DNA of 28,932 nucleotides from Myxococcales bacterium (GTDB lineage Bacteria > Myxococcota_A > Polyangia > Palsa-1104), in NCBI GenBank assembly GCA_043741435.1, contig JAYUBF010000316.1:1-28932 (forward strand). Direction: 5' to 3'. Of the stretch, positions 559 through 18,336 are shown one piece after another (the first letter of the stretch is position 1; every line of letters starts with the position of its first letter). A program made the position numbers and the translations under genes. A model generated the notes under the pieces. It saw only the letters and a list, made by a program, of their open reading frames with translations. It ran no database searches and was not told where the DNA came from.

Positions 559-3683
<3,125 letters not shown>

Positions 3684-4489: not shown

Positions 4490-5095
4490 GTGGCAAAGGC
4501 GAAACGAGGTCTCGAAGGTTTGCCAGTAGGCGCGCGTTGGCGTCTCTTGCCTCTGTCGCGAAGCGATGCTCTGGTAGCGCGCATGGCTCCCTCCGCCGAT
4601 CTCGCCGAACGATTCCTCGAGCAGCTCTTCGACGCCACCGGGCCTGCACCCGCCGTCGACTGGGATCGCTTCCGTATGATGCAGCTCATCCCGGGCACCG
4701 CCGGCGCACCCGATGTAAATGCGCGCGATCAGCTGGTCGCGCGGGGTTTCGTCGAGATCGCAAAGGGTTCGTTCAACGCAGAATCCGAGCGTCGCTCGTT
4801 ATCGTCGCTGCGCGCACTTTTCGAGCAGATCGTCGGTGCGCAGTACAAGGTTGTCGCGTTCGACAATCCGATGGTCGGCGCCCTGCGACAAGGACCCACG
4901 CCGGGCGCGCCGCCGAACCTTGCGCGCCTCCTGTCCGCCGTATCGGACATCGTGACGAACGCCGAGCCCATCACCATCCGTTCCGATGGTGACGTGCTCG
5001 GTGAACGGCTCATGACGTTGCTGTTCGTGAACGGAAAGTACGTGGGCTTCCTACCGGGCCGACGCGAGGTTGCGCCAGGCGCCGCGAAGGCCTAG
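4490..5095 (+). CDS. Hypothetical protein (201 aa from GTG 4490; alternative ATG 4583); no recognisable domain
   Basis: ORF divergent from brnT; stop codon overlaps the stop of the convergent flotillin gene (CTAG). Confidence 0.35.
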   Translation: MAKAKRGLEGLPVGARWRLLPLSRSDALVARMAPSADLAERFLEQLFDATGPAPAVDWDRFRMMQLIPGTAGAPDVNARDQLVARGFVEIAKGSFNAESERRSLSSLRALFEQIVGAQYKVVAFDNPMVGALRQGPTPGAPPNLARLLSAVSDIVTNAEPITIRSDGDVLGERLMTLLFVNGKYVGFLPGRREVAPGAAKA

Positions 5096-7152
5096 ACCTT
5101 CGCGACGGGCGGCGCCGCGATGCGTGCCTGCAGACCTTGACGAATGGCCTCGGCGGCAGCCGAGCGAGGACCGATCGCCGCTTCGCCGATCAGTGATTCA
5201 CCGACCTTGTCGGACAGCAGCATGGCGAGGAGCGCCTCCATCACGTTGCCGTTGCCACCCTTGCCGTCGGCGCCGCTGCCGCCGATCACGATCTTCGGCA
5301 CCACGTCGACGCCTGCGGCCTGGATGGCCTCGGCGAAGCGACTCATCACGCTCTGCGTGAGCTGGAACCGCGGCCCACCGTAGGCGCGGACCTGCTCCTC
5401 GACGGCGAGCGCCTGCGCGACACCGACGCGGGCCACGCGCTCGGCTTCGGCACCGGCGAGCAGCTCGATCTTCGAGGCCTCGCCTTCACCATGCAGACGC
5501 GTGCGGTCACGCTCGGCTTGCGCCATGACTTGAATCTGTGCCGCCTGTTGCTGCGCGCGCGCAAAGTCGGCCTTGCCCTGGTTGGCCTGCACGGTGATGG
5601 ACAGCTCCGACTCGGTGATGTGCGTCTGCTGTTTCGCGCGCGACTCGGCTTCGCGTAGCTCGCGCTCCTTCACGGCCGCCTTCTCCTGCCGGCTGTAGGT
5701 CTCGACTTGCTCCTCGGCGATCTGACGAGAGCGCAGCTGCGTGAGGATCTGCTCGATCTGTCCACCTTGGCCCGACGGTGTGCCGATGAGGACTTCCTGG
5801 AGCTCGAGGCTGTACGCGGCGAACTTGGTGCGCATCTCGGAGCCCGACTGATCTTGGATCGCCGAGCGATCTTGGATGAGCTGGATCAGCGTGCGCGTCT
5901 GGCCGATGTTCTTGAAGTACGCGGCCACCATCGGGTCGAGCGTCTGCTCGACGAGGCGCTTGATGTCACCGAAGCGCTGCACCACGAGCGGCGCCTTGCG
6001 ATAGTCGATGTGCACGACGACGCTGAGCGGCAGTGACGGCTCGAAGGCGTCCTTCGTGATGAGCGACACCTCGGCGAGGTTCTCGTCGAACTTGTGCGCG
6101 CCGGTCTCGGTGCGGTTCCACTTCAGGATGAAGTTGGTGGTGGGCACGATGATGACCTTGCCCGCGTATGTGTTGAACGCGTACTTGCCGGGCAAGAGTG
6201 GCTCGTTCCACACGCCGCGCAGGCCCTTGCCGACCATCTCTCCGTGGCGATACCCCTCGCCCGACAGATCGGTGCCCTTCGTCCCGGTGTAGGAGACCAC
6301 GACGCCCACGTTGCCGACGTCGATCACGGTCTTCGGCACCGCCTCGACGGTGGCGAACAAGCGATTGATGTAATACGTGCCCTCGGCAAGCACCTGCAGC
6401 TGACGGCCACGATTACCGCCGGCGCGGAGGAAGCGCTCCGGATCTTGAAAGCTCGCGTGGAACGTCTCGGGTACGCTCGGATCGTCACCAATGGTGGGCG
6501 CGATGATCTCACCATCGGGCAGCGACGGGCCGTCGTGTACCGTCACGACACCGATCGCATCGTCGGCGCCTTGGATGACGATGGGCACAAAGCCCCAACG
6601 CTCGTTGAGGAGCTGTGCCATCGCGGCGAACACCTTCTCCTCCTCTTTCTGGAGCTGGTGATAGAACACGCCGCGCTCGGTGATGACGGCGAACTGCGCG
6701 AGGTTGATGGCGTAGGTGCCTTCCCGCAACAGCTTGCGCTGAGGACCGCGTTGACCGCCCTTGCGCAAGAACGCTTCGACGTCTTGGAAGTCGTCGGCGT
6801 CGACGTTGCTGGCGAGTGTTTGGTTGTTGGGCAACTGTTGTCCGTCACGCGCGAACAAGTAGCCGAGGTGACCCTGACCGATCGTCACGAGCGGCTGTAT
6901 ATGCACCGAGTAGACGAACATCGGGAGGAAGTGCACGCCACCGCGCAGCACATGCGGCTGAAAGCCGGCCTCGCCGCGGAGCGCGATGATGCCGCTCTTG
7001 ATGGACCCGCGCGGCGAGAACCGCTTCTCGACGATGCCGACCTTGGAGTTGGGGATGAAGCGGATCGATCCGAACAGGTAGAGCGCGACGAGCCCGCCCA
7101 ACACGTACACCAACGTCATCCACGTACTGTCTGCCATGACCTGCGAGAACAT
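5092..7152 (-). CDS. Flotillin-family SPFH/band-7 protein (YqiK-like), N-terminal TM anchor, long coiled-coil
   Basis: 686 aa; N-terminal hydrophobic segment, SPFH domain, EA-rich coiled coil (AEEQVETYSRQEKAAVKERELREAESRAKQQ...), typical flotillin architecture. Confidence 0.8.
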   Translation of the reverse strand: MFSQVMADSTWMTLVYVLGGLVALYLFGSIRFIPNSKVGIVEKRFSPRGSIKSGIIALRGEAGFQPHVLRGGVHFLPMFVYSVHIQPLVTIGQGHLGYLFARDGQQLPNNQTLASNVDADDFQDVEAFLRKGGQRGPQRKLLREGTYAINLAQFAVITERGVFYHQLQKEEEKVFAAMAQLLNERWGFVPIVIQGADDAIGVVTVHDGPSLPDGEIIAPTIGDDPSVPETFHASFQDPERFLRAGGNRGRQLQVLAEGTYYINRLFATVEAVPKTVIDVGNVGVVVSYTGTKGTDLSGEGYRHGEMVGKGLRGVWNEPLLPGKYAFNTYAGKVIIVPTTNFILKWNRTETGAHKFDENLAEVSLITKDAFEPSLPLSVVVHIDYRKAPLVVQRFGDIKRLVEQTLDPMVAAYFKNIGQTRTLIQLIQDRSAIQDQSGSEMRTKFAAYSLELQEVLIGTPSGQGGQIEQILTQLRSRQIAEEQVETYSRQEKAAVKERELREAESRAKQQTHITESELSITVQANQGKADFARAQQQAAQIQVMAQAERDRTRLHGEGEASKIELLAGAEAERVARVGVAQALAVEEQVRAYGGPRFQLTQSVMSRFAEAIQAAGVDVVPKIVIGGSGADGKGGNGNVMEALLAMLLSDKVGESLIGEAAIGPRSAAAEAIRQGLQARIAAPPVAKV

Positions 7153-7173: not shown

Positions 7174-7198
7174 CGGACACGGCTATGTGCCGTGTCCG
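7174..7198 (-). promoter_or_regulatory. 9-bp perfect stem hairpin (CGGACACGG-N7-CCGTGTCCG) 23-47 nt upstream of flotillin ATG and ~55 nt downstream of the AAA+ gene stop; terminator/attenuator or 5'UTR structure
   Basis: Inverted repeat read from sequence; followed on the minus strand by UCUCUC then GGAG RBS. Confidence 0.3.
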
Positions 7199-7250: not shown

Positions 7251-8159
7251 CTAGCCGCGTGGATCGGCGAGCGCCCTGCTGATGTCGTGGGCGACGACCT
7301 GTTTGCCATCCGAGTAGAGGAACAACGCGCGCTCGATCACGATCTCGAGCTCGCGGAAATTGCCCGGCCAACGCTGCACCCGCAGGAGGTCGAGGGCGTC
7401 TTGCTGGATGACGACGGTGCCCGTCGCGCCGGTCTCGCCTTCGAGGACGACGTTCGCGGGAAGGCCCCGCTGCGTACGCACGCGATTCGCCATCCAGCGT
7501 GCCGCGGCGGGCACGTCTTCCGGACGCTCGCGCAAGGGCGGCAGCACGAAGTCGAGGCGCGCGAGCTTGTGATAAAGGTCGTGGCGGAAGCGACCCGCGG
7601 CCACTTCAGTTGCGATGTTGCCGTCGGTGATCACGAAGATGTTGAGCTGCGTGCGGCGCTCGCGGACCTCGCCGTCGCGCGTGTAGCGCCCGCTCTTGAC
7701 GAGCTCCAGCAAGCGACGCTGGAGCTGGGGTGCAAGACCAATGACCTCGTCGAGCACCAGCGTGCCGCCATCGGCCTCGGCGACGGCACCTTCGGTGGAA
7801 CGGTCGCCTTTGTGCGTTGGCGCGGCGCCGAATAGCTCGTCGGACACGACGGCCTCGGGGCGACCGGAGGTGGACACGGTGACGAGCGGTCCACCGTCGG
7901 GATGCATGAGCTCGTGGAGAGTGTGAGCGAGGCCTTCTTTGCCGCAGCCGGGCTCGCCCGCGATGACGGCGTTCGTGGTGTACGCGCGAGCGCGCAGGCG
8001 CTCGAGCACGTCGATGATGTAACGCACCGACGGGTGAGGAGACGCGAGCCGTACTAGACCAGCCTCCGATCCCTTGTTGCGCTTGCTGCTGAATGCGCCT
8101 GCAGTGACCTCACCGAGCGAGGCTGCGTCTTTGCTCTTCTTGGACATGTGGACTCTCAT
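7251..8159 (-). CDS. Sigma-54-activator-like AAA+ ATPase lacking GAFTGA motif, receiver domain and C-terminal HTH
   Basis: Walker A GEPGCGKE, ELFG...GGTLVLDEV, FRHDLYHKLARLDFVLPPLRERPEDVP, WPGNFRELE are all bEBP AAA+ hallmarks; GAFTGA position reads AAPTHKGDRSTEG; protein ends ~35 aa after WPGNxREL so no DNA-binding HTH. Confidence 0.75.
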   Translation of the reverse strand: MRVHMSKKSKDAASLGEVTAGAFSSKRNKGSEAGLVRLASPHPSVRYIIDVLERLRARAYTTNAVIAGEPGCGKEGLAHTLHELMHPDGGPLVTVSTSGRPEAVVSDELFGAAPTHKGDRSTEGAVAEADGGTLVLDEVIGLAPQLQRRLLELVKSGRYTRDGEVRERRTQLNIFVITDGNIATEVAAGRFRHDLYHKLARLDFVLPPLRERPEDVPAAARWMANRVRTQRGLPANVVLEGETGATGTVVIQQDALDLLRVQRWPGNFRELEIVIERALFLYSDGKQVVAHDISRALADPRG

Positions 8160-8176: not shown

Positions 8177-8617
8177 TTAGCGCGAGAAGCCGAGCAGCTG
8201 ATCCATCGTCTGCTGATCAGCGTCGGGAAACGGATACTGCTCGAACTCGGCCGAGGCCACCCAGCGGAAGTCCTTCACGCGCCGAGCGACGAGCGGCTTG
8301 CCCTCGACGAGGGTGGCTTCATACAGCGCGAGCGCGACGCGATAGCCGTCGTACTCGTGCACCTTCTCGCCGAGCTTGCGGCCGATCTTGCCGTCGGCGT
8401 CGAGGCGCTCCTTGAGCTCGCGACGGAGCGCGTCCTCGTCGGCCTCGTTGGGCTCGACCTTGCCACCCGGGAACTCCCACAGGAGCGAGAGCACCGCTTG
8501 ATCCCGGCGCTGGGTGATGAGGTAGCGACCTTCGCGCTCGACGACGGCGGCCACCACGCGCACGGTTTTTTTGCCGACGACATCTGACACGACGATCTCC
8601 TTCGCCTGGGAATACAT
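8177..8617 (-). CDS. NUDIX hydrolase (MutT/NudG-like)
   Basis: Nudix box WEFPGGKVEPNEADEDALRRELKERL; ATG at 8617 (track ORF extends to 8674 via alternative starts). Confidence 0.75.
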   Translation of the reverse strand: MYSQAKEIVVSDVVGKKTVRVVAAVVEREGRYLITQRRDQAVLSLLWEFPGGKVEPNEADEDALRRELKERLDADGKIGRKLGEKVHEYDGYRVALALYEATLVEGKPLVARRVKDFRWVASAEFEQYPFPDADQQTMDQLLGFSR

Positions 8618-8687
8618 CCCCACGCGTGTTCCGAAATACACATCCGAGAATTTGAGGAATCGGCATCGTAGCACGACGCCAGCCTGC

Positions 8688-9809
8688 CTAGCCGCCCTTG
8701 GTCGCGAACAAGATGAAGAGCGCGAGCACGACGGTGATCGCCGTGACGAACGCCGCGATCTTCAACCACGAATAAGGCGCCTTACCCTGCACCTCGCCGG
8801 TCTGGCCGTTCACGAGGAAGCGATACACGTCGCCCCGATAGCGATACGCCGCGATCCAGATCGGCAGCAGCACGTGCTTGAACGTGAGCTCCGAGTACGT
8901 CGATGTCACGTCGAGCAGGCGCTGCGTGTCGCCGGGGACATCGCCGCTGCAGCGTGAGCGCTGGTCCTCGTCGATGCGCAGCTTCGCGGATTCGAAACCT
9001 ACTTTCAGGTCGACCGCGTACTCCTCGGCGCGCCAACCCGCGAGATAGCCCGGCGTGTAGGGCACGAGCGCGCTCATGTCGAACGACTTCAGCGAGTCGG
9101 CCAGTGCCTTGGGAAGCCCGACCGACGCGCACACGAGAACGTCGTCGTAGTCGTCGCTGCGCTGGCCCCAGGCGGACTCCCAGCGCGTGTGGCGTACCTC
9201 CCGCGTGCGGGTCTCGGTCTCGCCGCTGACCACCACCTCGTAGTCCTCGGTGACGGTGTAGTGATAGCCGGCATCCGCGGTCCAGCTGGACTCGACGTGT
9301 GCGTCGTACGTCCAGAACGGCACGTACACACCGACGAGATCTTGCACCTTGGCGAGGGTCTTCAAGTCATTCGGGCGGAACCAGAGCTTGCGCATCCACT
9401 TGCCGAACGCAGCGTTCGCGACTTTGATGTCGACGGTGAACGGCACCAATGACTCGGGCCGCAGGAGCGTACGCGCCTCCTCGACCCAGACGGCTGCGGC
9501 ACCGCAGAACGCGCAACGGGTGGCGATCTTGTTGTCGGTGAAGTGCATCGTCGCGCCGCATTCTTTGCAACGCGAGACCTTGTCCGTCTGCACGCCGAGC
9601 CCGTGCGGCATCGCGTCGAGGCCAGCGAACAGGTCGTGCTCGACGATGGCGCCCTTGCCACCCGGCACCTTGCGCGTGGCACCGCAGAAGCTGCACTTCA
9701 GGAGCTTGCTGACGGCGTCGTAGTGCTGCTCGCCGCTGCAGGCCTCGCACTTCCACTGCACCGTGGCGTCGGTCTTCGCGAGCGCCGTCTCGGCGGGATC
9801 GTTTCCCAT
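8688..9809 (-). CDS. Double zinc-ribbon membrane protein (two CxxC-X-CxxC ribbons N-terminal, conserved middle domain, single C-terminal TM); resembles Bacillus YdjG-type PspA-operon proteins
   Basis: CEACSG...CSFCG and CKECG...CAFCG; motifs GVYVPFW, HVLLPIW, NGQTGE; C-terminal WLKIAAFVTAITVVLALFILF. Confidence 0.55.
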   Translation of the reverse strand: MGNDPAETALAKTDATVQWKCEACSGEQHYDAVSKLLKCSFCGATRKVPGGKGAIVEHDLFAGLDAMPHGLGVQTDKVSRCKECGATMHFTDNKIATRCAFCGAAAVWVEEARTLLRPESLVPFTVDIKVANAAFGKWMRKLWFRPNDLKTLAKVQDLVGVYVPFWTYDAHVESSWTADAGYHYTVTEDYEVVVSGETETRTREVRHTRWESAWGQRSDDYDDVLVCASVGLPKALADSLKSFDMSALVPYTPGYLAGWRAEEYAVDLKVGFESAKLRIDEDQRSRCSGDVPGDTQRLLDVTSTYSELTFKHVLLPIWIAAYRYRGDVYRFLVNGQTGEVQGKAPYSWLKIAAFVTAITVVLALFILFATKGG

Positions 9810-9903
9810 GGGTCACGCAGTGTAGCCCGTCTGCACGCGGTTCGAGACTGCGCTATCCTTCAGCCCGACCGCGATCGGCACACCCACCTTGGAGGACGGC
9901 TAC

Positions 9904-11037
9904 ATGGGCATTTTCGACTTCGTGAAAAAAGGCGCGCAAGAGCTCTTCATCGCGCGACCCGACGAAGCCAAGGGGATGATCGTCTTCAAGCACCCCGACC
10001 AAACGGTGCCGAACAAGGCACAAATCACCGTCGGTCAGGACGAGTGCGCGTTGTTCTACAAGGACGGCCAGTTCGTCGGTCGCGTCGACGCGGGTGTGCA
10101 TAAGCTCGAGACGGGCAACATCCCGTTCCTCAACCGCCTCGTCGACACCTTCACGGGCGGCAACCTCTATCGCGCGGAGCTGTGGTTCGTCTCGCTGCGT
10201 GAAGCTGGTGGCTGGCGCTTCGGGGGTCGCATCGGCGACGTGGAAGATCCGAAGTCGGGTCTCGCCATCCAGCTCATGGTTCATGGCGAGTTCTCGGTCC
10301 AGACGGAAGACCCGATGAAGCTCATCGCGTTCTTCGGTCAACGTTCATGGTCCACCACGGAAGAGTTCGACGGCTGGTTCAAGAGCCTCGTGCTGAAGGT
10401 CATCCGTGATCGCATCGCCGAGCTGTGCGTGAAGCAGAACGTACCTCTCCTCAATGTGACGTCGGGAGCGCTCACCGAAGAGGTGGAGGAAGTGGTGCTG
10501 AAGGGCATCGCGCCGCAGCTCTCGCCCTACGGCATGAAGGCCGTGCGCCTCGGCAACTTCGTCGTGTCGATGAAGGAAGAGGACGAGATCCAGCTGAAGG
10601 CGCTCTATAAGGACGCCGCGCAGATCCGTATGGCGCAAGGCGCCAACATGGGCGCGTACCAGCAGTTCGCCGCGGGCAAGGCGATGATGGGCGCGGCCGA
10701 CGGGATGGCCAAAGGGGGCGACGGCGGAGGCGGTGGCAATCCGATGCTGGGCGGTGCCGGCCTCGGTGTGGGCCTCGGGATGGCGCAGATGTTCAACCAA
10801 TCGAACCAGGCCGCGCAGCAGCCAGCGGTTGCGCCGGCCGCGGCTGCACCCCAGTCACAGCTGCGTGCGCTGCTGCAGACGGCGCAAGCCAAGGTGGCCG
10901 GTGTGGCGGACGCCGATACCAAGACGCGGCTCGAGGGCATGATCCGCGACCTCAAGGGCGCCGTCGCCAAGGGCGACAAGGCGAAGCAGGGCGAGCTCGA
11001 GACCGAGCTTCAAGATCTGCTGTTCGTCTTGGAGTAG
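9904..11037 (+). CDS. SPFH/Band_7_1-family protein (YdjI-like), Gly-rich linker and C-terminal coiled-coil
   Basis: Starts MGIFDFVKKG with GGAGGA RBS 7 nt upstream; pattern typical of the Band_7_1 subfamily; divergent from the zinc-ribbon gene. Confidence 0.65.
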   Translation: MGIFDFVKKGAQELFIARPDEAKGMIVFKHPDQTVPNKAQITVGQDECALFYKDGQFVGRVDAGVHKLETGNIPFLNRLVDTFTGGNLYRAELWFVSLREAGGWRFGGRIGDVEDPKSGLAIQLMVHGEFSVQTEDPMKLIAFFGQRSWSTTEEFDGWFKSLVLKVIRDRIAELCVKQNVPLLNVTSGALTEEVEEVVLKGIAPQLSPYGMKAVRLGNFVVSMKEEDEIQLKALYKDAAQIRMAQGANMGAYQQFAAGKAMMGAADGMAKGGDGGGGGNPMLGGAGLGVGLGMAQMFNQSNQAAQQPAVAPAAAAPQSQLRALLQTAQAKVAGVADADTKTRLEGMIRDLKGAVAKGDKAKQGELETELQDLLFVLE

Positions 11038-12053: not shown

Positions 12054-12746
12054 TCACGAGAGGAGCTCCTGCCGAACGTTGACGGCTGGCAAGGGCAAGA
12101 GGTCGTGCGCGAAGGTCCAGGGCCACGTATGACGGCCCTCCGGCGGCAAGCCGCCGACGCGCGTGATTACCACGCGCAAGAAAGAGCGCGTGGCATCGTT
12201 GAGGTAGCCACCGCCGCGCGGACCCTCCGGCAGCTCGCACATCGCCGCGTAGCGACGCCAGATGGCGGCGAAGATCTCGTCGCGGCGCACCTTGGCGAGG
12301 ATGGACGCGGCTGCGACAGCGACGTGCACGGACTCTCCCTTGTCGTGTGCCTCCAAGATCGGATAGCGCGGGATGAGCGGTGAGAACAGCCGCGCGCCAT
12401 CGCACACGATGCGCTTGCAGGGCGGCGCGTGATCGATCATCGACGCCGCGGTGCGCTGCTCGAGCCGGTTGAGGCCTTGCACGGCACACGCGCGATCGAC
12501 CTCGTGCACGTCGAGCACCCGGATGGTCACGTAGTCGGCGACCGCCAAGATGCGCGGGACCAGCGACGAGCGAACCTCGTGCGCGTCCGGTCCCGCGAAG
12601 GCCTTCGAGTCGGCCACACCCGCGCGGGTGAGCGCAGCGGAGGCGCGTGGGTGCAATGCGACCGCAGCCATCACCATCGGCCCGACGATGGGTCCGCGAC
12701 CCGCTTCATCGATGCCGAGGACGCGATCTCCGTGGATCAGTTTCAT
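12054..12746 (-). CDS. rnhB: Ribonuclease HII
   Basis: MKLIHGDRVLGIDEAGRGPIVGPMVMAAVAL matches the RNase HII active-site region; ATG overlaps the stop of the upstream dynamin gene (ATGA). Confidence 0.9.
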   Translation of the reverse strand: MKLIHGDRVLGIDEAGRGPIVGPMVMAAVALHPRASAALTRAGVADSKAFAGPDAHEVRSSLVPRILAVADYVTIRVLDVHEVDRACAVQGLNRLEQRTAASMIDHAPPCKRIVCDGARLFSPLIPRYPILEAHDKGESVHVAVAAASILAKVRRDEIFAAIWRRYAAMCELPEGPRGGGYLNDATRSFLRVVITRVGGLPPEGRHTWPWTFAHDLLPLPAVNVRQELLS

Positions 12747-15697
12747 GGGGTCGGTGGTTCTTGTAACCCGGCAGCGATCACCTGGCGCAAGGATTCGATT
12801 GGCCCGACGAGCCGACACTCGAGGTCGAAGCGACCGAGCGCGACGTCCTCGCGGTGTTGCGCGATGGCGGAGAGGAGATCGGAGAACAAGGCCTGGCAGT
12901 AGGCGCGCAACGGTTGGCGCAGCTCTTCTTCGAGCGTGTCGTCGTCGAGAGGCGATGCGCGCTCGAGTGCCCTGCGCACCTCGGTCTCGACGAGGTCGAG
13001 CTTCGGCAGGTCGCGCGAGAAGAAGGTGGCAACGGCGCCGCCACGCAGATAGCCACGCACGAACGCGCGATAGCGACCGAACACGCGATCGTCGAGGAGC
13101 TCCAGGCGATCGAGCACGGCGGCCCGTTCGCCCGGGCCCACCAGCTGCGCGAGCACGGACACCGAACGTCGCAGCTCGTCGAGCAAGCGCAGCCGCGAGG
13201 TGGCCAAGGCCGTGGTGAGACGCTCTTCGAGGAGCGCGAGCAAGAAGTCGCGGTCGGCCGGGGTGGCCTCGTTGCCGCCGAACAGCGAGCGACGGGGCCG
13301 TACGAAGTCGAGCACCTCGCGCGTGCAGACCTTCAGCGCCTCATCGGAGGCCTCGAGCAAGCGACGTCGCTCAGCCGGCAAGAACTCGTGTGTCATGGCG
13401 TAGCTGTCCGCGCGCACCGCCGCTGCGGCGCGATCGTCCGCATCGGTGGAGAGCGTGCTCAGTTTCTGGTCCACGATCTGGCGAGCTTGCTCAAGGAGAG
13501 AGGCCGCGCGCGTCATCGCCACCCGACGCTGGATGACGCGCGCTCGATTGAAGAACCGCTCCTCGAGCGTCGCATCGAGCGTGGGATAGTTGGATGCGGC
13601 GAGCGCCGTAGCATCTCCACTACGTCGAGCTGCGAGTGCGGCCCGTGCGGAGACGGGCACCACGGTCTCGAGGCGGTCACCGACGCTGCGCTGCACGTGG
13701 GCGATGATCTGCGCGCGCTCGCCCTCGTCGGCGCGATCGATCTTGTTGAGCACCCCGAGGATCTTGCGACCGTGCGAAGCGATCTTGCCGAGGGCTTCTC
13801 CTTCGGAGGCCTTGGCTGCTTGGTCGACGGAGAACAACCAGATCACCGCATCGGCTTCCTCGATGAAGCGGCGCGCCGTGGCTTCGTGCTCCGGATGGAT
13901 GGAGTTGAGGCCCGGCGTATCCACCACGTTGATCCGTTGCAACACCTCGAGCGGAAACAAGAGCTCGACCAGGCGAATGCGCTTCGCTTGCTCGGCGGTG
14001 AGGTTCTTCAGGAACGCCGGCACGTCGGCCCACGCGATCTCTCGCGTGCTCTCGTCGTGGTGGATGATGCGGCCGCCGCGCTCGGGTCCGTACTTGAGGA
14101 GGTTCACCGTCGCGGTGGTGGGCGTGACGCCCATCGGTGCTACTTCTTCGCCGAGGAACGCATTCACGAAGGTGGACTTGCCCGCGTTGAACTCGCCCAT
14201 CACCGTGATGACGAGCGGGCGATCGAGCGACTCGCGCAATCGGCCGAGAGCAGGTTGCAGCTCGGCCAGCTCGGGTGCCGATGTGGACAAGCGATGGGCC
14301 GCTGCGAGGAGACCCGCGACATCGCCCGGGGCCGGATCTTCACGACGAAACAACGCTGCGTAGCGGGTGCGCGGGCGCGGATCCGACGGCGAGAGCTGGG
14401 CAGCACGGCGCAGTGCCACCAGCGCCCCATCGCGCGTGCCACGACGCAAGGCCACCTCGGCCTCGGCCAGCTTCACCTCGACGGAGCGCAGCGCCAGCGA
14501 CGGATCGGCGAGCAGCAGCTGCGCCTCGGCGTCGAAAGCGGCGACGTCGCCTTCGCGCAGCAGCATGCGCAACGCGAGGGCCGCGTGAGCCTCGGGGTGG
14601 GTCGCGTCGCGCAGGAGGAGCGCCTCCGCGTACACCGCCGCGCGCTCGCGAAGATCCGCGCCGAGGGCCACACTCAACGCCTCCGCGAGCAGCGGCCTCG
14701 GATCGAGCAACGCGATGGCTTGGCCATCTTCCGGCGCCGCGACCTGGCCGCCACCAGCGAGCGCGCGATCGAAGGCATCGAGCGCGACCTCCGGCGATTG
14801 CGCCAAGGCCGCGATGCGCCCGAGCTCGACGAGGAGGCCCAGATGGCTCGGTGCGTGCCCGAGTGCTTGCAAGATTTCACCGCGCGCCTCGTCGAGCCGA
14901 CCCTCGAGGCGCGCGAGCTTCGCGAGGCCCAGGCGCGACAGCACCTCGGCATCTCGCAGATCACGCCCCGTCGCATCGAGCGGTTGCTTCGCCTCGGGCA
15001 ATGCCGCGATTCCCGCGAGCGCCGCACGGAACGACGTCTGCGCTTCTTCGCCGCGCCCGAGCGCGAGCGCGACCTCACCACGCGCTGACCACGCGAGTGG
15101 CGGTACCGGTTCTCTGCGGGTGGCACGCTCGAGGCAGATGCGTGCGGTGTCGAGATCCCCTTTGTGGAGTAGCGCTCGACCGAGCAACGTCTGCGCGGTG
15201 ATCTCGTCCGGCGCCGAGGCCACGGCCTTGCGCAGCTCCCGCACGGCGCGATCGTAGCGACCGAGCGCGAGGTTCGCGGCACCGAGGCCACGATACGCCT
15301 CCGCGCGGATTCCCACGTCGCCAGTGCCACCGTCGAGCGCACGGCGAAAATGGGAGATGGCCTTCTCGTGGTCGCCGCGGCTCATCGCCAGCTGACCCAG
15401 CGCGAGAAAGGGCTCCACGAAGCCCTCGCGCAGTGACGCTTGCTCGTACAGCTTCGTCGCGCCGTCCGGATCCCCCATCTTCTCGCGCACGACGCCGAGC
15501 AAATACTGGGCGCGAGAATGATCGGCGCGGATCACCAGCGCCGCCTCGAGCTCGCGCTCCGCGCCCTGAAGATTTCCGGCGTCGAGGTACGCCTGGCCCA
15601 GCTCGGTGTGCGCTCGCAGGTCGTCGGGGACGATGAGCTCCCCGAGCTGATCGGCGAGCTTGTCGAAGAAACCGGACGACTTGTCGGTGGGGCTCAC
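12743..15697 (-). CDS. TPR-repeat (N-terminal ~470 aa) fused to bacterial dynamin-like GTPase (C-terminal ~500 aa); no hydrophobic paddle
   Basis: Multiple TPR units (AQYLLGVVREKMGDPDGATKLYEQA..., AQTLLGRALLHKGDLDTAR...); G1 GEFNAGKST, switch I TPTTATVN, G3 DTPG, G4 NKID; GTG start 3 nt after the TAA of the preceding gene. Confidence 0.8.
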   Translation of the reverse strand: MSPTDKSSGFFDKLADQLGELIVPDDLRAHTELGQAYLDAGNLQGAERELEAALVIRADHSRAQYLLGVVREKMGDPDGATKLYEQASLREGFVEPFLALGQLAMSRGDHEKAISHFRRALDGGTGDVGIRAEAYRGLGAANLALGRYDRAVRELRKAVASAPDEITAQTLLGRALLHKGDLDTARICLERATRREPVPPLAWSARGEVALALGRGEEAQTSFRAALAGIAALPEAKQPLDATGRDLRDAEVLSRLGLAKLARLEGRLDEARGEILQALGHAPSHLGLLVELGRIAALAQSPEVALDAFDRALAGGGQVAAPEDGQAIALLDPRPLLAEALSVALGADLRERAAVYAEALLLRDATHPEAHAALALRMLLREGDVAAFDAEAQLLLADPSLALRSVEVKLAEAEVALRRGTRDGALVALRRAAQLSPSDPRPRTRYAALFRREDPAPGDVAGLLAAAHRLSTSAPELAELQPALGRLRESLDRPLVITVMGEFNAGKSTFVNAFLGEEVAPMGVTPTTATVNLLKYGPERGGRIIHHDESTREIAWADVPAFLKNLTAEQAKRIRLVELLFPLEVLQRINVVDTPGLNSIHPEHEATARRFIEEADAVIWLFSVDQAAKASEGEALGKIASHGRKILGVLNKIDRADEGERAQIIAHVQRSVGDRLETVVPVSARAALAARRSGDATALAASNYPTLDATLEERFFNRARVIQRRVAMTRAASLLEQARQIVDQKLSTLSTDADDRAAAAVRADSYAMTHEFLPAERRRLLEASDEALKVCTREVLDFVRPRRSLFGGNEATPADRDFLLALLEERLTTALATSRLRLLDELRRSVSVLAQLVGPGERAAVLDRLELLDDRVFGRYRAFVRGYLRGGAVATFFSRDLPKLDLVETEVRRALERASPLDDDTLEEELRQPLRAYCQALFSDLLSAIAQHREDVALGRFDLECRLVGPIESLRQVIAAGLQEPPTP

Positions 15698-15700
15698 GCG

Positions 15701-17515
15701 TTACGCTGGCGGGGCCCACAGGCGATCGCGCAGCGACGAGATGTGCTGCTCGATGGCGTGGAGGCGCTCGAGCTGCGCGACGATCTGCTCGTCCCGCTCC
15801 TGCACGTTGACGCCCTGGTTGCGGCGCTCGGCCAGCGCACGATCGAGCACCTCGCCAATTCCTTTGTGCAGCGCCTCGCCGGCGGCGGTCACGAAGTCGG
15901 ACAGGCGCAGCTGGAAGTCTTCGACGATGTTCTCGAACTTGGGGCCGATGACCAGCGCTGCACGATCGACCACTTCTTCGATGCCGCGCTTTGCCTGCGC
16001 CTTGATCTCGCCCGACACGCGGTCGCGCAACAACAGCGCGATGATCGGCGCAGCGACGGTGAGCAGGCCACCCACCAGCGTGTTTACGAACAGGAACACG
16101 CCGGTGCCGAGCGCGCCCAGCGCGAACACGCCCACGTCGTACTTCAGCGTGTCGACCTCGAGCTCGACCTTGGTGTCGGCGGGGCCGAGCTCGCGCGCGA
16201 GCGTGGCCATCGTCGCGTCGACGTCTTCATTGGTGATCTGGATGATCTCCTCGGCGAGGCGCTCGAGCTGCGCTGCGACCTTGTCTCCCAGCGTCTCGGC
16301 CCAGGTCTTCCACGTGTCCTCGAGGAACGGCTGCAGATACTTCTGCACGTCACCACCCGAGACACGATCGATCTCGTTCGGCAGGCGTCCCTTCAGCTCG
16401 CGCACGAATTCCTCGAGGTCGAGGCGAAGGCCGGCCTTGATCGCGTCGGCCTCGGCGCGGATGCGCAGGTGATGGGCGCGCAGGTGAGCACGCGCACCGT
16501 CGAGCTGGTGGCGTACCTTGCCGATGCGTGACTCCAGCTCGTCGAGCTCGAGCTCGAGCGAGCGGCGCTTGATGCCGAGGTTCTGCCGCAGATAGCCGAG
16601 CGTGCGCAGCCCATCGGCGATGCCGTTGTCGAGAAGCACCTGCCCGCGCGAGGTGGACAGGTAGCCGTTCAGGTGATCGAGCAGGGGCTTCATGCCCGAG
16701 GTCTCGCGCACGGCGGGATCGGCCGACAGCTGACGCTTGGCCGACAGCGGGAAGATCATCGGGTCGGGCACGACCTTGTTGAGGTGCTCGCGCGCAAAGC
16801 GCAGCGTCTCGTCGCGCTCGTCGGGCGCGAGCAGGTCGATCTTGCCGATGACGAAGAAGATCTTGTCGCGTGAGCGACGGAGGATGCGTTGCTCGAGGAA
16901 CGCGCGCTCGGACTGCTTCAGCACCTGCGCACCATCGAGCAGGAACAACACCGCATCGGCACGCGGGATATAGCCGTAGGTGATCTCGGCACGCTGCTCG
17001 TTGATGTCGTTGACGCCGGGCGTGTCCACCAGCGTCACCCGATCGCGCAGGATATCGGCGGGCCACGCGACTTCAACGAACTTCACCTGCATGGCCGCGC
17101 TTTGCGCCTGCTGGCCTTCGATGGTCACCCAGTCGTACAGCTTGTGCGGGTCGATCTGCTGCGTGCGACCGTCGGTGAAGTGGGCCGTCGCGGCTGGGTG
17201 CTCTCCCCAGATCAGGTGATTGATGGTGGCGGTCGTCGGCGTGATGCCGGCGGGCAAGACCGCGTGGCCGAGCAGCGCGTTCACGAAGGTGGACTTGCCG
17301 TGGTTGAACTCACCGACGACCACGAGGTTGAAGCGATCGTCGCGCAGCTTGGGGATGCGTTGATCGACCAGCTCCGAGCGGAGCGTCTCCATGCCCACTT
17401 CATTGGCGAGGTCGGCCGTGCGCTGCAGATCGCTCAGCAGCTGCGTCTTGAGCTCGGTGAGGCCCTGCAGCGTGGAACCGCCGTTGTCAGAGCCGTAGTT
17501 TGCGGACTCACTCAT
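15701..17515 (-). CDS. Bacterial dynamin-like protein (BDLP/DynA/LeoA-like large GTPase) with hydrophobic membrane paddle
   Basis: G1 GEFNHGKST, TPTTATIN, DTPGVND, GKID; hydrophobic segment VGVFALGALGTGVFLFVNTLVGGLLTVAAPIIALLL in the stalk region; start overlaps the M48-like gene stop (ATGA). Confidence 0.85.
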   Translation of the reverse strand: MSESANYGSDNGGSTLQGLTELKTQLLSDLQRTADLANEVGMETLRSELVDQRIPKLRDDRFNLVVVGEFNHGKSTFVNALLGHAVLPAGITPTTATINHLIWGEHPAATAHFTDGRTQQIDPHKLYDWVTIEGQQAQSAAMQVKFVEVAWPADILRDRVTLVDTPGVNDINEQRAEITYGYIPRADAVLFLLDGAQVLKQSERAFLEQRILRRSRDKIFFVIGKIDLLAPDERDETLRFAREHLNKVVPDPMIFPLSAKRQLSADPAVRETSGMKPLLDHLNGYLSTSRGQVLLDNGIADGLRTLGYLRQNLGIKRRSLELELDELESRIGKVRHQLDGARAHLRAHHLRIRAEADAIKAGLRLDLEEFVRELKGRLPNEIDRVSGGDVQKYLQPFLEDTWKTWAETLGDKVAAQLERLAEEIIQITNEDVDATMATLARELGPADTKVELEVDTLKYDVGVFALGALGTGVFLFVNTLVGGLLTVAAPIIALLLRDRVSGEIKAQAKRGIEEVVDRAALVIGPKFENIVEDFQLRLSDFVTAAGEALHKGIGEVLDRALAERRNQGVNVQERDEQIVAQLERLHAIEQHISSLRDRLWAPPA

Positions 17516-18297
17516 CGCGACAGAACCTCGCCCACTTTGCCGTCTACCTCGGCCTGTGTGAGGCCGCCTTGCTCACCGGTGAGCGCCTTGTAGTACGCGC
17601 TGTCGGCAAAGACGCGCAGCGCTTCGAGGCGCTTGGCCGTGCCGTCTCCAGAGGGCATGAGCTTCATCAAGGCTCCGGCGGCGGTGTCGATGTTGCGCAC
17701 CGCGATGAGACCCGCGCGATCGGCGGTGAGCGCGGCGCGTTGCTCCCAAGCGCCGAGCGCGATGGCCGCTGGCTTCACGATCCACTGCAAGAAACGGTTG
17801 GCCGAGCGCGTGAGGTGATAGAGCGCGGTGATGAACACCACGTGATGGTTCTGGATGTGGCCGCATTCCTGGCCGAGCACGAACACGAGCTCGTCGTCGC
17901 TCAGGGCTTCGATGCGCGTGGCATCGAGCACGACATCGACGTCTTCGTCGGTGCCGAAGGTGCGCGCGACTACCTGGTCGAGGGTCGGTACGACGTAGAG
18001 AGTTGGCCGCGGGATGTGCAACGCCTTGGCCGCGCGCTCGACGAGCGCATCGAGCTTCGGCAGCCTGTCGGGGCTGACCTTGGTGGCGCCGTTCAAGAGG
18101 CCGTCGCGCGCGCCGGACTTCCACAGTCGCACGCTGGCCTCGATCGCCAGCTTCACCGGCCGCACCGAGTCGAGCGTCTTCTTGATGCGCAGGTCCCCGC
18201 CGTACGAATAGGCGGCGCCCTCACGGGCTTGGGCATCGCGCGCGCCTTTTCTGCGCTCGATGTACCGCTGGAAGTCCAGATCGATGTCGACGGCCAT
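17512..18297 (-). CDS. M48-family metallopeptidase-like protein with variant motif QECGH in place of HExxH; cytoplasmic (no TM or signal peptide)
   Basis: PRPTLYVVPT...DELVFVLGQECGHIQNHH...EQRAALTADRAG follows the M48 (HtpX/Ste24) layout; the first zinc-ligand His is Gln; ATG 18297 (track uses TTG 18336). Confidence 0.65.
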   Translation of the reverse strand: MAVDIDLDFQRYIERRKGARDAQAREGAAYSYGGDLRIKKTLDSVRPVKLAIEASVRLWKSGARDGLLNGATKVSPDRLPKLDALVERAAKALHIPRPTLYVVPTLDQVVARTFGTDEDVDVVLDATRIEALSDDELVFVLGQECGHIQNHHVVFITALYHLTRSANRFLQWIVKPAAIALGAWEQRAALTADRAGLIAVRNIDTAAGALMKLMPSGDGTAKRLEALRVFADSAYYKALTGEQGGLTQAEVDGKVGEVLSR

Positions 18298-18307
18298 GCG
18301 GCCAAGA

Positions 18308-18336
18308 ACCGTAGCCGACGAACATGGGTCGGTCAA
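18308..18336 (-). promoter_or_regulatory. Putative promoter of the M48-dynamin-dynamin-rnhB operon: -35 TTGACC, 17-nt spacer, -10 TACGGT; would give a near-leaderless transcript starting ~4 nt before ATG 18297
   Basis: Hexamers read on the minus strand; low-confidence, sequence-only. Confidence 0.2.

What the first reader, a model, noticed from the sequence alone, without database searches (positions are those of the whole stretch)
7251..8159. Stand-alone sigma-54-activator AAA+ core without GAFTGA and without HTH
All bEBP AAA+ landmarks are present (Walker A, ELFG...GGTLxLDE, R-finger LPPLRER, WPGNxREL). However the sigma-54-contacting GAFTGA loop is AAPTHKGDRSTEG. The protein also terminates ~35 aa after the sensor-II region, so it has no DNA-binding domain. 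It has no receiver or GAF N-domain either. It therefore cannot act as a classical enhancer-binding protein.
Basis: partly seen in the sequence, partly recalled or inferred. Interest (0 to 1): 0.55.

Follow-up and report, generated by a model that had tools for sequence, protein, structure and literature searches.

The report
Orphan sigma-54-type AAA+ ATPase, uncoupled
This is a real, well-conserved gene from uncultured soil myxobacteria (class Polyangia) that encodes only the ATPase core of a sigma-54 transcription activator. It has lost both the loop that touches sigma-54 and the DNA-binding domain, so it almost certainly does something other than classical enhancer-dependent activation; what it does is unknown.

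Summary
ORF 7251..8159 (-), with its real start probably at 8147 (298 aa), matches Sigma54_activat (E 1.3e-30) and AAA_lid_14 and nothing else. The GAFTGA position reads AAPTHKGDRSTEG, and the protein ends 30 aa after WPGNFRELE. This is not a frameshift or a one-off. All 119 near-full-length close homologues (56-96% identity) share the short architecture and an L1 region of 19 aa instead of 21, with its own motif xxPxx[KR]G[ED]R[PS]. dN/dS is 0.2-0.3. A wider set of 263-331 aa relatives (38-48% identity), all from Myxococcota or Deltaproteobacteria metagenome bins, also lacks the HTH and has an even shorter L1. Walker A, sensor II and the FRxDL arginine are kept. The switch Asn is S/A, the sensor-I Asn is an invariant Asp, and the arginine finger is Lys in this subfamily. 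The gene follows a MutT/NudG-like Nudix gene closely, overlapping it in some relatives, in a conserved block near gyrB-recF-dnaN-dnaA. My best reading is a nucleotide-dependent oligomeric switch or remodeller that no longer acts on sigma-54 or DNA. The main rival is a FleT-like modulator of full-length activators. It is a new variant of a known kind, of moderate interest, with no experimental data.

The parts
7251..8159 (-). Gene for the stand-alone bEBP-type AAA+ protein. The ORF is 302 aa; the likely true start is the ATG at 8147, giving 298 aa beginning MSKK.
   Evidence: ORF list. Pfam Sigma54_activat plus AAA_lid_14. Homologues all start MSKK/MTKK/MAKK. The 298-aa member P0288 lies on a 28,932-bp contig. 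GC3 is 0.81. dN/dS is 0.20-0.32.
8027..8147 (-). N-terminal tail of about 40 residues, predicted disordered, with a subfamily-conserved peptide SLGEVTAG..KGSxEGLxRLASPHP. It is not a receiver or GAF domain.
   Evidence: pLDDT is below 50 for residues 1-35 and 38-42. Conservation is seen in alignment A1. There is no Pfam hit.
7935..7958 (-). Walker A motif GEPGCGKE. Relatives have GEPGTGKE; the Cys at x72 is rare.
   Evidence: Translation. Lys is present in 118/119 close and 33/33 distant relatives; Thr is at x72 in 116/119.
7788..7838 (-). L1 (helix-2 insert) region ELFGAAPTHKGDRSTEG. It takes the place of ELFGHEKGAFTGA..., is two residues shorter, and has a charged K-G-D-R tip.
   Evidence: Alignments to NifA, ZraR and NtrC1. 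The region is 19 aa in 118/119 close relatives against 21 in canonical ones; G118 is in 118/119 and R120 in 117/119. The AF2 model shows a confident short hairpin (pLDDT 86-93).
7746..7763 (-). Walker B motif TLVLDE.
   Evidence: Translation. Asp is in 117/119. Glu is in 108/119, with Asp in 10. In distant relatives the first acid is Asp in 19 and Glu in 14.
7623..7628 (-). Sensor-I position: Thr-Asp where canonical activators have Thr-Asn (ATN).
   Evidence: Alignment to NtrC1. Asp is in 119/119 close and 31/33 distant relatives, against N/H in canonical ones.
7566..7586 (-). Arginine-finger segment RHDLYHK. R192 is kept (NtrC1 R293 / PspF R162). The finger position itself is Lys198 (NtrC1 R299 / PspF R168).
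   Evidence: Alignment. Lys is in 117/119 close relatives; Arg is in 27/33 distant ones. The R299 = R168 finger assignment is from PMC7175178.
7344..7370 (-). Sensor II / lid motif WPGNFRELE.
   Evidence: Translation. Arg is in 119/119 close and 33/33 distant relatives.
7410..7478 (-). Family-specific insertion in the lid domain (RTQRGLPANVVLEGETGATGTVV), variable in length among relatives.
   Evidence: A 14-residue gap in NifA and NtrC1 opposite query residues 238-251. Length variation is visible in A1.
7175..7197 (-). Perfect 9-bp hairpin GGACACGGC-ACATA-GCCGTGTCC in the 98-bp spacer after the stop codon. It may mark the end of the operon and leaves no room for an HTH domain.
   Evidence: Sequence. 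The consensus terminator scan did not call it because there is no T run.
8177..8674 (-). MutT/NudG-like Nudix hydrolase gene immediately upstream on the same strand. The likely start is GTG 8590, preceded by GGAG, giving 137 aa. It is the most widely conserved neighbour of this AAA+ family.
   Evidence: Pfam NUDIX_4 at 6.5e-22. NCBIfam hits to NudG, MutT and PRK08999 are all below their cutoffs. The adjacency is seen in L001-L006 and in 11 of the 22 distant loci L007-L028. The genes overlap by 1 nt in the P0119 contig and by 4 nt in L084.
8688..9809 (-). First gene of the apparent operon: a 373-aa protein with N-terminal CxxC zinc ribbons and a C-terminal hydrophobic segment. It is conserved only in the close subfamily's loci.
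   Evidence: Only weak zinc-ribbon Pfam hits. tblastn finds it at 53-59% identity upstream of the Nudix gene in L001-L005. A 372/373-aa gene sits in the same position.

Best explanation
The gene encodes a stand-alone AAA+ protein that descends from bacterial enhancer-binding proteins (bEBPs) but has been uncoupled from both of their outputs, sigma-54 and DNA. Shown: it is under purifying selection and belongs to a large family restricted to metagenome bins named Polyangia, Myxococcales, Myxococcota or Deltaproteobacteria. It keeps the nucleotide-binding and ring-interface elements: the Walker A Lys, Walker B acids, the FRxDL Arg, LPPLRER and the sensor II Arg. It has lost GAFTGA, the switch Asn, the sensor-I Asn (now an invariant Asp), any HTH, and in this subfamily the arginine finger (now Lys). 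It sits at the end of an operon directly after a MutT/NudG-like Nudix hydrolase gene, in a core-genome block near the replication-origin genes. Inferred: it binds ATP and assembles into rings like its relatives. It hydrolyses slowly or acts as a nucleotide-state switch. It exerts its effect through protein-protein contacts on a partner that is not sigma-54-RNA polymerase, using the remodelled charged L1 hairpin and family-specific lid surfaces (AAxWMANRV and the lid insertion). The co-translated Nudix enzyme is the most plausible functional partner or co-regulated activity. It is not a DNA-bound transcription activator.
For: Identity and fold: Pfam, NCBIfam partial matches covering only the central domain of NorR, NtrC, NifA and RtcR, PDB sequence hits, and an AF2 model with Foldseek top hits NtrC1, DmpR, ZraR, NifA and PspF. 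Conserved short architecture: 119 close relatives and 33 distant ones were analysed, with tails of 19-37 aa in the close set and mostly 26-40 aa in the distant set after RELE, against 120-138 aa in canonical activators. In the two protein searches, each of the 120 best hits carried no HTH_8; all 120 hits of the distant-member profile are 263-377 aa. Purifying selection: dN/dS 0.20-0.32. Loss of coupling elements and retention of the nucleotide site: motif census and alignments. GAFTGA substitutions at Phe or Thr abolish activation, and GAFTGA-defective homologues are not sigma-54 activators (PMC3162934; PMC7175178). Synteny: ZnTM373 -> Nudix -> AAA+ lies next to gyrB-recF-dnaN-dnaA in L001-L006 and the P0119 contig. 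Nudix -> AAA+ persists at 38-46% identity, with overlapping stop and start codons. No bEBP, rpoN or sigma-54 promoter excess was found nearby.
Against: No partner or substrate has been identified. Gene adjacency to a MutT-like gene may be historical rather than functional, and some family members lack it (L007, L009-L013, L083). L1 is conserved within the subfamily but largely deleted in the distant subfamilies, so no single L1-based mechanism can hold for the whole family. Walker B variation (DE, DD, EE, EG) and the Lys finger leave it open whether ATP is hydrolysed at all. Oligomerisation is assumed from homology and was not tested.
Confidence: 0.42

Rival explanations
1. It is a FleT-like accessory or poison subunit. 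Having only the AAA+ core, it enters mixed rings with one or more full-length, DNA-bound bEBPs of the same cell, or titrates one of their regulators. Because its own L1 cannot engage sigma-54, it tunes or damps their activity.
For: Precedent exists: FleT lacks both the N-terminal and the HTH domains and works only as a hetero-oligomer with FleQ, and HrpR/HrpS form heterohexamers (PMC7175178; PMC10084136; PMC7277832). The ring-interface segment GRFRHDLYxKL/LPPLRER is close to the canonical consensus. Bins named Myxococcales, Myxococcota or Nannocystaceae also carry canonical GAFTGA-containing activators (L029 among others).
Against: Known hetero-oligomer pairs are close paralogues encoded in the same regulon. 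This family is only about 30-35% identical to canonical activators. It is never next to a bEBP gene in the loci examined. It behaves like a syntenic core gene rather than part of a regulon.
Confidence: 0.25
2. It is still a sigma-54 activator. It acts from solution without binding DNA, as HTH-less FlgR or CtcC do, and contacts sigma-54 through its non-canonical L1 loop.
For: HTH-less bEBPs exist (PMC7175178). L1 and L2 are retained as insertions in this subfamily, and L1 is conserved. At least one activator with a strongly deviant motif (DVUA0100, GVATGV) is predicted to remain functional (PMC4641369).
Against: Both critical residues, Phe and Thr, are gone, and the loop is shorter and charged. 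The switch Asn that couples ATP state to L1 is lost (mechanism in PMC7175178). Sister subfamilies delete L1 almost completely. No sigma-54-type promoter enrichment is seen in the window (21 matches against 29 expected).
Confidence: 0.1
3. It is a co-regulator of sigma-70-type transcription, like TyrR, HupR, DhaR or VpsR, but is recruited to DNA by a separate DNA-binding partner instead of its own HTH.
For: GAFTGA-defective bEBP homologues are typically sigma-70-dependent regulators (PMC3162934; VpsR, PMC6158489).
Against: All of those proteins keep their own HTH; this family never has one. No conserved gene for a DNA-binding protein accompanies it.
Confidence: 0.1
4. It is a decaying remnant: a truncated or frameshifted bEBP gene with no function.
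For: Several catalytic or coupling residues deviate from the consensus.
Against: dN/dS is 0.2-0.3. The 120 best 90%-identity clusters of each of two searches share the same length and the same end. The family has its own invariant residues: TD, K198, WMANR, NF in WPGNF. Only 98 bp lie downstream, with no HTH in any frame.
Confidence: 0.03

Closest known systems
FleT of Rhodobacter (Cereibacter) sphaeroides, an AAA+-only bEBP
   Same: It consists of the central AAA+ domain alone, with no regulatory N-domain and no HTH. [quoted passage not shown]
   Different: FleT is a sigma-54 activator that works in a FleQ/FleT hetero-oligomer and is encoded inside the flagellar regulon. From memory, and not verified here, it keeps a functional GAFTGA. 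The window protein has no GAFTGA, no neighbouring bEBP gene, and sits in a core-genome block with a Nudix gene.
GAFTGA-defective bEBP homologues: TyrR, DhaR, HupR, VpsR, YplP, and Caulobacter/R. capsulatus NtrC
   Same: They have a Sigma54_activat-type AAA+ core whose L1 motif is substituted or deleted, and they are therefore not sigma-54 activators (PMC3162934).
   Different: All retain a C-terminal HTH and act as DNA-bound, sigma-70-dependent regulators, and most keep sensory N-domains. The window protein has neither.
PspF, a minimal bEBP (AAA+ plus HTH, no N-terminal sensor)
   Same: It is a compact protein without a sensory domain that is regulated in trans through surfaces of its AAA+ domain. 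It has the same fold.
   Different: PspF has GAFTGA, the switch Asn, the R168 finger and an HTH. No pspA is present in the window or the related loci.

Membership tests
Bacterial enhancer-binding protein (sigma-54 activator) | Central AAA+ domain of the Sigma54_activat (PF00158) type with a lid domain | tested here: met
   PF00158 at E 1.3e-30 and PF25601 at 1e-10. Foldseek top hits are NtrC1, ZraR, NifA and PspF.
Bacterial enhancer-binding protein (sigma-54 activator) | GAFTGA (or a tolerated variant) at the tip of the L1 loop, contacting sigma-54 region I | tested here: not met
   AAPTHKGDR aligns opposite HEKGAFTGA. It is two residues shorter and has no Phe or Thr. The same holds in 118/119 close relatives. 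The only GAF-like string is a non-conserved one in the N-terminal tail.
Bacterial enhancer-binding protein (sigma-54 activator) | ATP-hydrolysis and coupling residues: Walker A Lys, Walker B DE, switch Asn, sensor I Asn, arginine finger, sensor II Arg | tested here: inconclusive
   Walker A, Walker B, R192 and sensor II are kept. The switch Asn is Ser, the sensor-I Asn is Asp, and the finger Arg is Lys. ATPase activity cannot be decided from sequence.
Bacterial enhancer-binding protein (sigma-54 activator) | C-terminal HTH (Fis-type) enhancer-binding domain (usual, not universal) | tested here: not met
   There is no HTH_8 hit. The protein ends 30 aa after RELE, against 120-138 aa in canonical ones. 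Only 98 bp lie before the next gene.
Bacterial enhancer-binding protein (sigma-54 activator) | rpoN in the genome and -24/-12 promoters at target genes | not testable with these tools
   Only a 28.9-kb contig is available. No rpoN was found among the ORFs scanned. TGGCAC-N5-TTGC-like sites are not enriched (21 against 29 expected).
FleT-type AAA+-only co-activator | No regulatory domain and no DNA-binding domain | tested here: met
FleT-type AAA+-only co-activator | Encoded with, and acting in a hetero-oligomer with, a full-length paralogous bEBP | tested here: not met
   No bEBP gene lies within about 7-10 kb in the window or in L001, the P0119 contig, or L082-L084. Physical interaction is not testable here.
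Sigma-70-dependent bEBP homologues (TyrR/HupR/DhaR/VpsR type) | Defective GAFTGA | tested here: met
   The definition comes from PMC3162934.
Sigma-70-dependent bEBP homologues (TyrR/HupR/DhaR/VpsR type) | Own HTH DNA-binding domain and a sensory N-domain | tested here: not met
Anti-phage defence AAA+ (PADLOC models) | Full-length match to a defence-system component and a defence-island context | tested here: not met
   Only the AAA+ portion of the RtcR/PspF CARF_AAA_HTH models matches. The context is core genome near gyrB/dnaA.

The most novel reading that the evidence does not exclude
The family is a previously unrecognised branch of the bEBP clade of AAA+ proteins that has been re-targeted to a substrate other than sigma-54. 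It would be a housekeeping, origin-proximal factor of Polyangia that works together with a MutT/NudG-type Nudix hydrolase, and in sister lineages with a rhodanese. It could, for example, couple nucleotide-pool or redox state to remodelling of a protein complex. That would be the first bEBP-type AAA+ with a function outside transcription initiation.
Probability: 0.25. Interest if true: 0.7.

Novelty: new variant of a known kind. Interest (0 to 1): 0.5.

Why it matters
The helix-2-insert clade of AAA+ proteins to which bEBPs belong is regarded as dedicated to remodelling sigma-54 holoenzyme. Its known deviants either keep DNA binding (TyrR, HupR, VpsR) or keep GAFTGA (FleT, FlgR). This family has lost both, yet it is large, under purifying selection and syntenic in a core-genome location. 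It therefore shows the AAA+ core kept for some other job. Automatic annotation calls all members 'sigma-54-interacting transcriptional regulator' or 'DNA-binding NtrC family response regulator', which is wrong on both counts and inflates bEBP counts in Myxococcota. If the partner is found, it would reveal how a dedicated transcription motor is re-used.

Tried and rejected
- **Frameshift or lost HTH:** rejected. Only 98 bp with a hairpin lie downstream, and all relatives end at the same point.
- **Shifted GAFTGA:** rejected. A regex search finds only a non-conserved GAFSSK in the N-terminal tail.
- **Sigma-54 promoter scan of the window:** fewer matches than in shuffles. The sigma-70 and terminator consensus scan was uninformative.
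- **Defence-system reading:** PADLOC matches only the AAA+ part of the RtcR/PspF models. The Nudix protein hits candidate PDC-S07, but the context is core genome.
- **Psp-type membrane-stress link:** the leads were SPFH proteins, dynamin-like GTPases and an M48 peptidase nearby, plus a rhodanese in sister loci that recalls PspE. No pspA was found anywhere, the gene downstream of the AAA+ gene varies, and PspF is not the best-scoring relative. I kept this only as a lead.
- **PexR of M. xanthus (PMC12754779):** it is a canonical GAF-AAA-HTH activator and is not related to this case.
- **Literature search for proteins lacking both GAFTGA and the DBD:** nothing found.
- **Foldseek against AFDB50, to find cultured hosts:** the library was unavailable.
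- **Long high-scoring hits in the representative search:** they are tandem canonical bEBP domains with an HTH, not this family.

Full report
**1. The observation**

The minus-strand ORF 7251..8159 (302 aa) exists and has coding-type codon composition, with GC3 of 0.81. Pfam finds Sigma54_activat (E 1.3e-30, residues 57-202), Sigma54_activ_2 and the AAA+ lid AAA_lid_14 (residues 250-298). It finds no HTH_8, receiver or GAF domain. NCBIfam models of NorR, NtrC, NifA, RtcR, PspF and others match only through their central domain and far below their cutoffs.

All homologues begin MSKK, MTKK or MAKK. A member of the same 90% cluster, found on a contig of exactly 28,932 bp, is 298 aa long. The real start is therefore the ATG at 8147.

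**2. Not an artefact**

The stop codon is followed by only 98 bp, which contain a perfect 9-bp hairpin (7175-7197), before the next gene starts. There is no room for an HTH in any frame.

A protein search returned 120 clusters at 56-96% identity. They are almost all 281-302 aa long and have the same two Pfam domains. In a census of the 119 near-full-length ones:
- The segment between ELFG and GGT is 19 aa in 118 of them, against 21 in canonical activators. It carries its own motif xxPxx[KR]G[ED]R[PS]xxG.
- The tail after WPGNFRELE is 19-37 aa, mostly 29-30, against 120-138 aa in two canonical activators recovered by the same genome scan.

Pairwise dN/dS against six orthologous loci is 0.20-0.32, with dS near saturation. 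The only GAF-like string, GAFSSK at residues 21-26, lies in the disordered N-terminal tail and is not conserved.

**3. What is kept and what is lost**

These positions are kept:
- The Walker A Lys: 118/119 close and 33/33 distant relatives.
- The Walker B acids.
- R192, equivalent to NtrC1 R293 / PspF R162.
- LPPLRER.
- The sensor II Arg: all sequences.

These positions are lost or changed:
- The switch Asn that couples the gamma-phosphate to L1 is Ser (105) or Ala (13).
- The Asn of the ATN sensor-I motif is Asp in 119/119 close and 31/33 distant relatives.
- The arginine finger (NtrC1 R299 = PspF R168; PMC7175178) is Lys in 117/119 close relatives and Arg in most distant ones.

Walker B varies across the wider family: DE, DD, EE and once EG.

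The AF2 model has a mean pLDDT of 78, with the N-terminal 42 residues disordered. It shows the bEBP AAA+ fold with L1 as a confident short hairpin. Its best PDB matches are NtrC1, DmpR, ZraR, NifA, LuxO, FleQ and PspF.

**4. The wider family**

The genome scan, the scan of representatives at 50% identity and a profile search with distant members found further subfamilies at 38-48% identity. The close family collapses to a single 50% cluster, and roughly ten further short clusters appear in the representative scan. The 120 best hits of the profile search are 263-377 aa long.

These relatives again stop right after the lid. L1 is mostly cut down to about 12 residues. Every source name is automatic ('sigma 54-interacting transcriptional regulator', 'DNA-binding NtrC family response regulator'). 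Every named organism is a metagenome bin of Polyangia, Polyangiaceae, Myxococcales, Myxococcota or 'Deltaproteobacteria'. I found no cultured or characterised member.

**5. Genomic context**

In the window the order on the minus strand is:
- a 373-aa zinc-ribbon membrane protein (8688-9809);
- a MutT/NudG-like Nudix gene (8177-8674, likely start 8590);
- the AAA+ gene;
- the hairpin;
- a 686-aa flotillin-like SPFH gene.

A YdjI-like Band_7_1 gene is divergent from this block, and gyrB lies about 4 kb away.

In L001-L006 and the P0119 contig, the block Band_7_1 <-> ZnTM373 -> Nudix -> AAA+ is conserved next to gyrB-recF-dnaN-dnaA. The gene after the AAA+ gene varies: NHL, PilZ or others.

The Nudix -> AAA+ pair persists in 11 of the 22 distant loci. 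The two genes overlap by 1 nt in the P0119 contig and by 4 nt in L084. In those lineages a single-domain rhodanese gene is usually divergent from the pair. Some members have neither neighbour.

No bEBP, rpoN or pspA gene is nearby, and -24/-12-like sites are not enriched.

**6. Interpretation**

The protein is a bEBP-derived AAA+ core that retains a nucleotide site and ring-interface elements. It has lost every element that couples ATP state to sigma-54 (GAFTGA, the switch Asn) and every means of binding DNA.

Published work shows that GAFTGA Phe/Thr substitutions abolish activation, and that GAFTGA-defective homologues are not sigma-54 activators (PMC3162934; PMC7175178). Those homologues keep an HTH. 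The only bEBP known to lack both flanking domains, FleT, is a sigma-54 co-activator acting with FleQ.

I therefore favour a sigma-54- and DNA-independent, nucleotide-dependent oligomeric switch or remodeller that acts through protein contacts (confidence 0.42). The co-translated Nudix enzyme is the most plausible functional associate. That last step is an inference from synteny only.

The rivals are:
- A FleT-like modulator or poison subunit of full-length activators (0.25). Precedent and the conserved interface segment favour it. The low identity to canonical bEBPs and the absence of any linked bEBP gene count against it.
- A residual sigma-54 activator acting from solution (0.10).
- A sigma-70 co-regulator recruited by a separate DNA binder (0.10).
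- A dead gene (0.03), effectively refuted.

**7. Novelty and score**

GAFTGA-less homologues and HTH-less bEBPs are each known. A large, conserved family lacking both, with its own invariant substitutions (TD, a Lys finger, WPGNF) and a Nudix partnership, is not described in the literature I could search.

It is a new variant of a known kind. A specialist would find it noteworthy but not startling, and it currently has no phenotype, partner or cultured host. I score interest at 0.5.

Noticed in passing
window 5092-7152 (-), 9889-11037 (+), 12743-15697 (-), 15701-17515 (-), 17512-18336 (-): A membrane-remodelling neighbourhood surrounds the gene. It contains a 686-aa flotillin-like SPFH protein, a YdjI-like soluble SPFH (Band_7_1), two tandem dynamin-family GTPases (the first with an N-terminal TPR array; both match PADLOC LeoA/LeoBC models), and an M48 (HtpX-like) peptidase whose gene overlaps the end of the dynamin gene by 4 nt. 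No pspA is present.
   Followed up: partly
window 565-3192 (+); L001, L002, L003, L005, L006: The window lies in the replication-origin region. gyrB is here, and in related contigs recF, dnaN, dnaA, rnpA, yidD and yidC follow directly. The AAA+ gene is thus a core, origin-proximal gene in this lineage.
   Followed up: partly
window 3189-3683 (-): A PIN-domain (VapC-like) ORF converges on gyrB and overlaps its stop codon by 4 nt. I did not look for an antitoxin partner.
   Followed up: no
window 7175-7197: A perfect 9-bp hairpin (GGACACGGC ACATA GCCGTGTCC) without a T tract lies between the AAA+ stop and the flotillin-like gene. It is followed by a GGAG ribosome-binding site.
   Followed up: partly
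window 7944-7946 (residue 72): The Walker A motif of this particular protein has Cys (GEPGCGKE) where 116/119 close relatives and all distant ones have Thr. This might make the nucleotide site redox-sensitive, or it may be neutral.
   Followed up: no
L008-L011, L013, L017, L018, L020, L024-L026, L028, L082, L084: In the distant subfamilies a cytoplasmic single-domain rhodanese gene (about 140 aa) is divergently adjacent to the (Nudix ->) AAA+ unit. The window itself has no rhodanese (tblastn).
   Followed up: partly
P0123, P0124, P0129, P0130 (representative search): These proteins carry two or three tandem Sigma54_activat AAA+ domains and a C-terminal HTH. In P0123 and P0124 the first domains have degenerate L1 motifs and the last has GAFTGA or GAYTGA. 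P0129 and P0130 have GAFTDA followed by GAFTGA. P0124 also repeats an FHA-like module. They are unrelated to the finding but have an unusual architecture.
   Followed up: no
window 9889-11037 (+) versus L001-L006: The window's Band_7_1 protein matches its orthologues over only about 255 residues. It ends in an Ala/Gln/Lys-rich, Cys-free tail, whereas the orthologues in L001 and the P0119 contig carry C-terminal zinc-ribbon domains (DZR/Zn_ribbon), as B. subtilis YdjI does.
   Followed up: no
window 4490-5095 (+): A 201-aa ORF with no Pfam or NCBIfam hit is conserved at 39-51% identity in the same relative position (between the AAA+ gene and gyrB) in L002 and L006.
   Followed up: no
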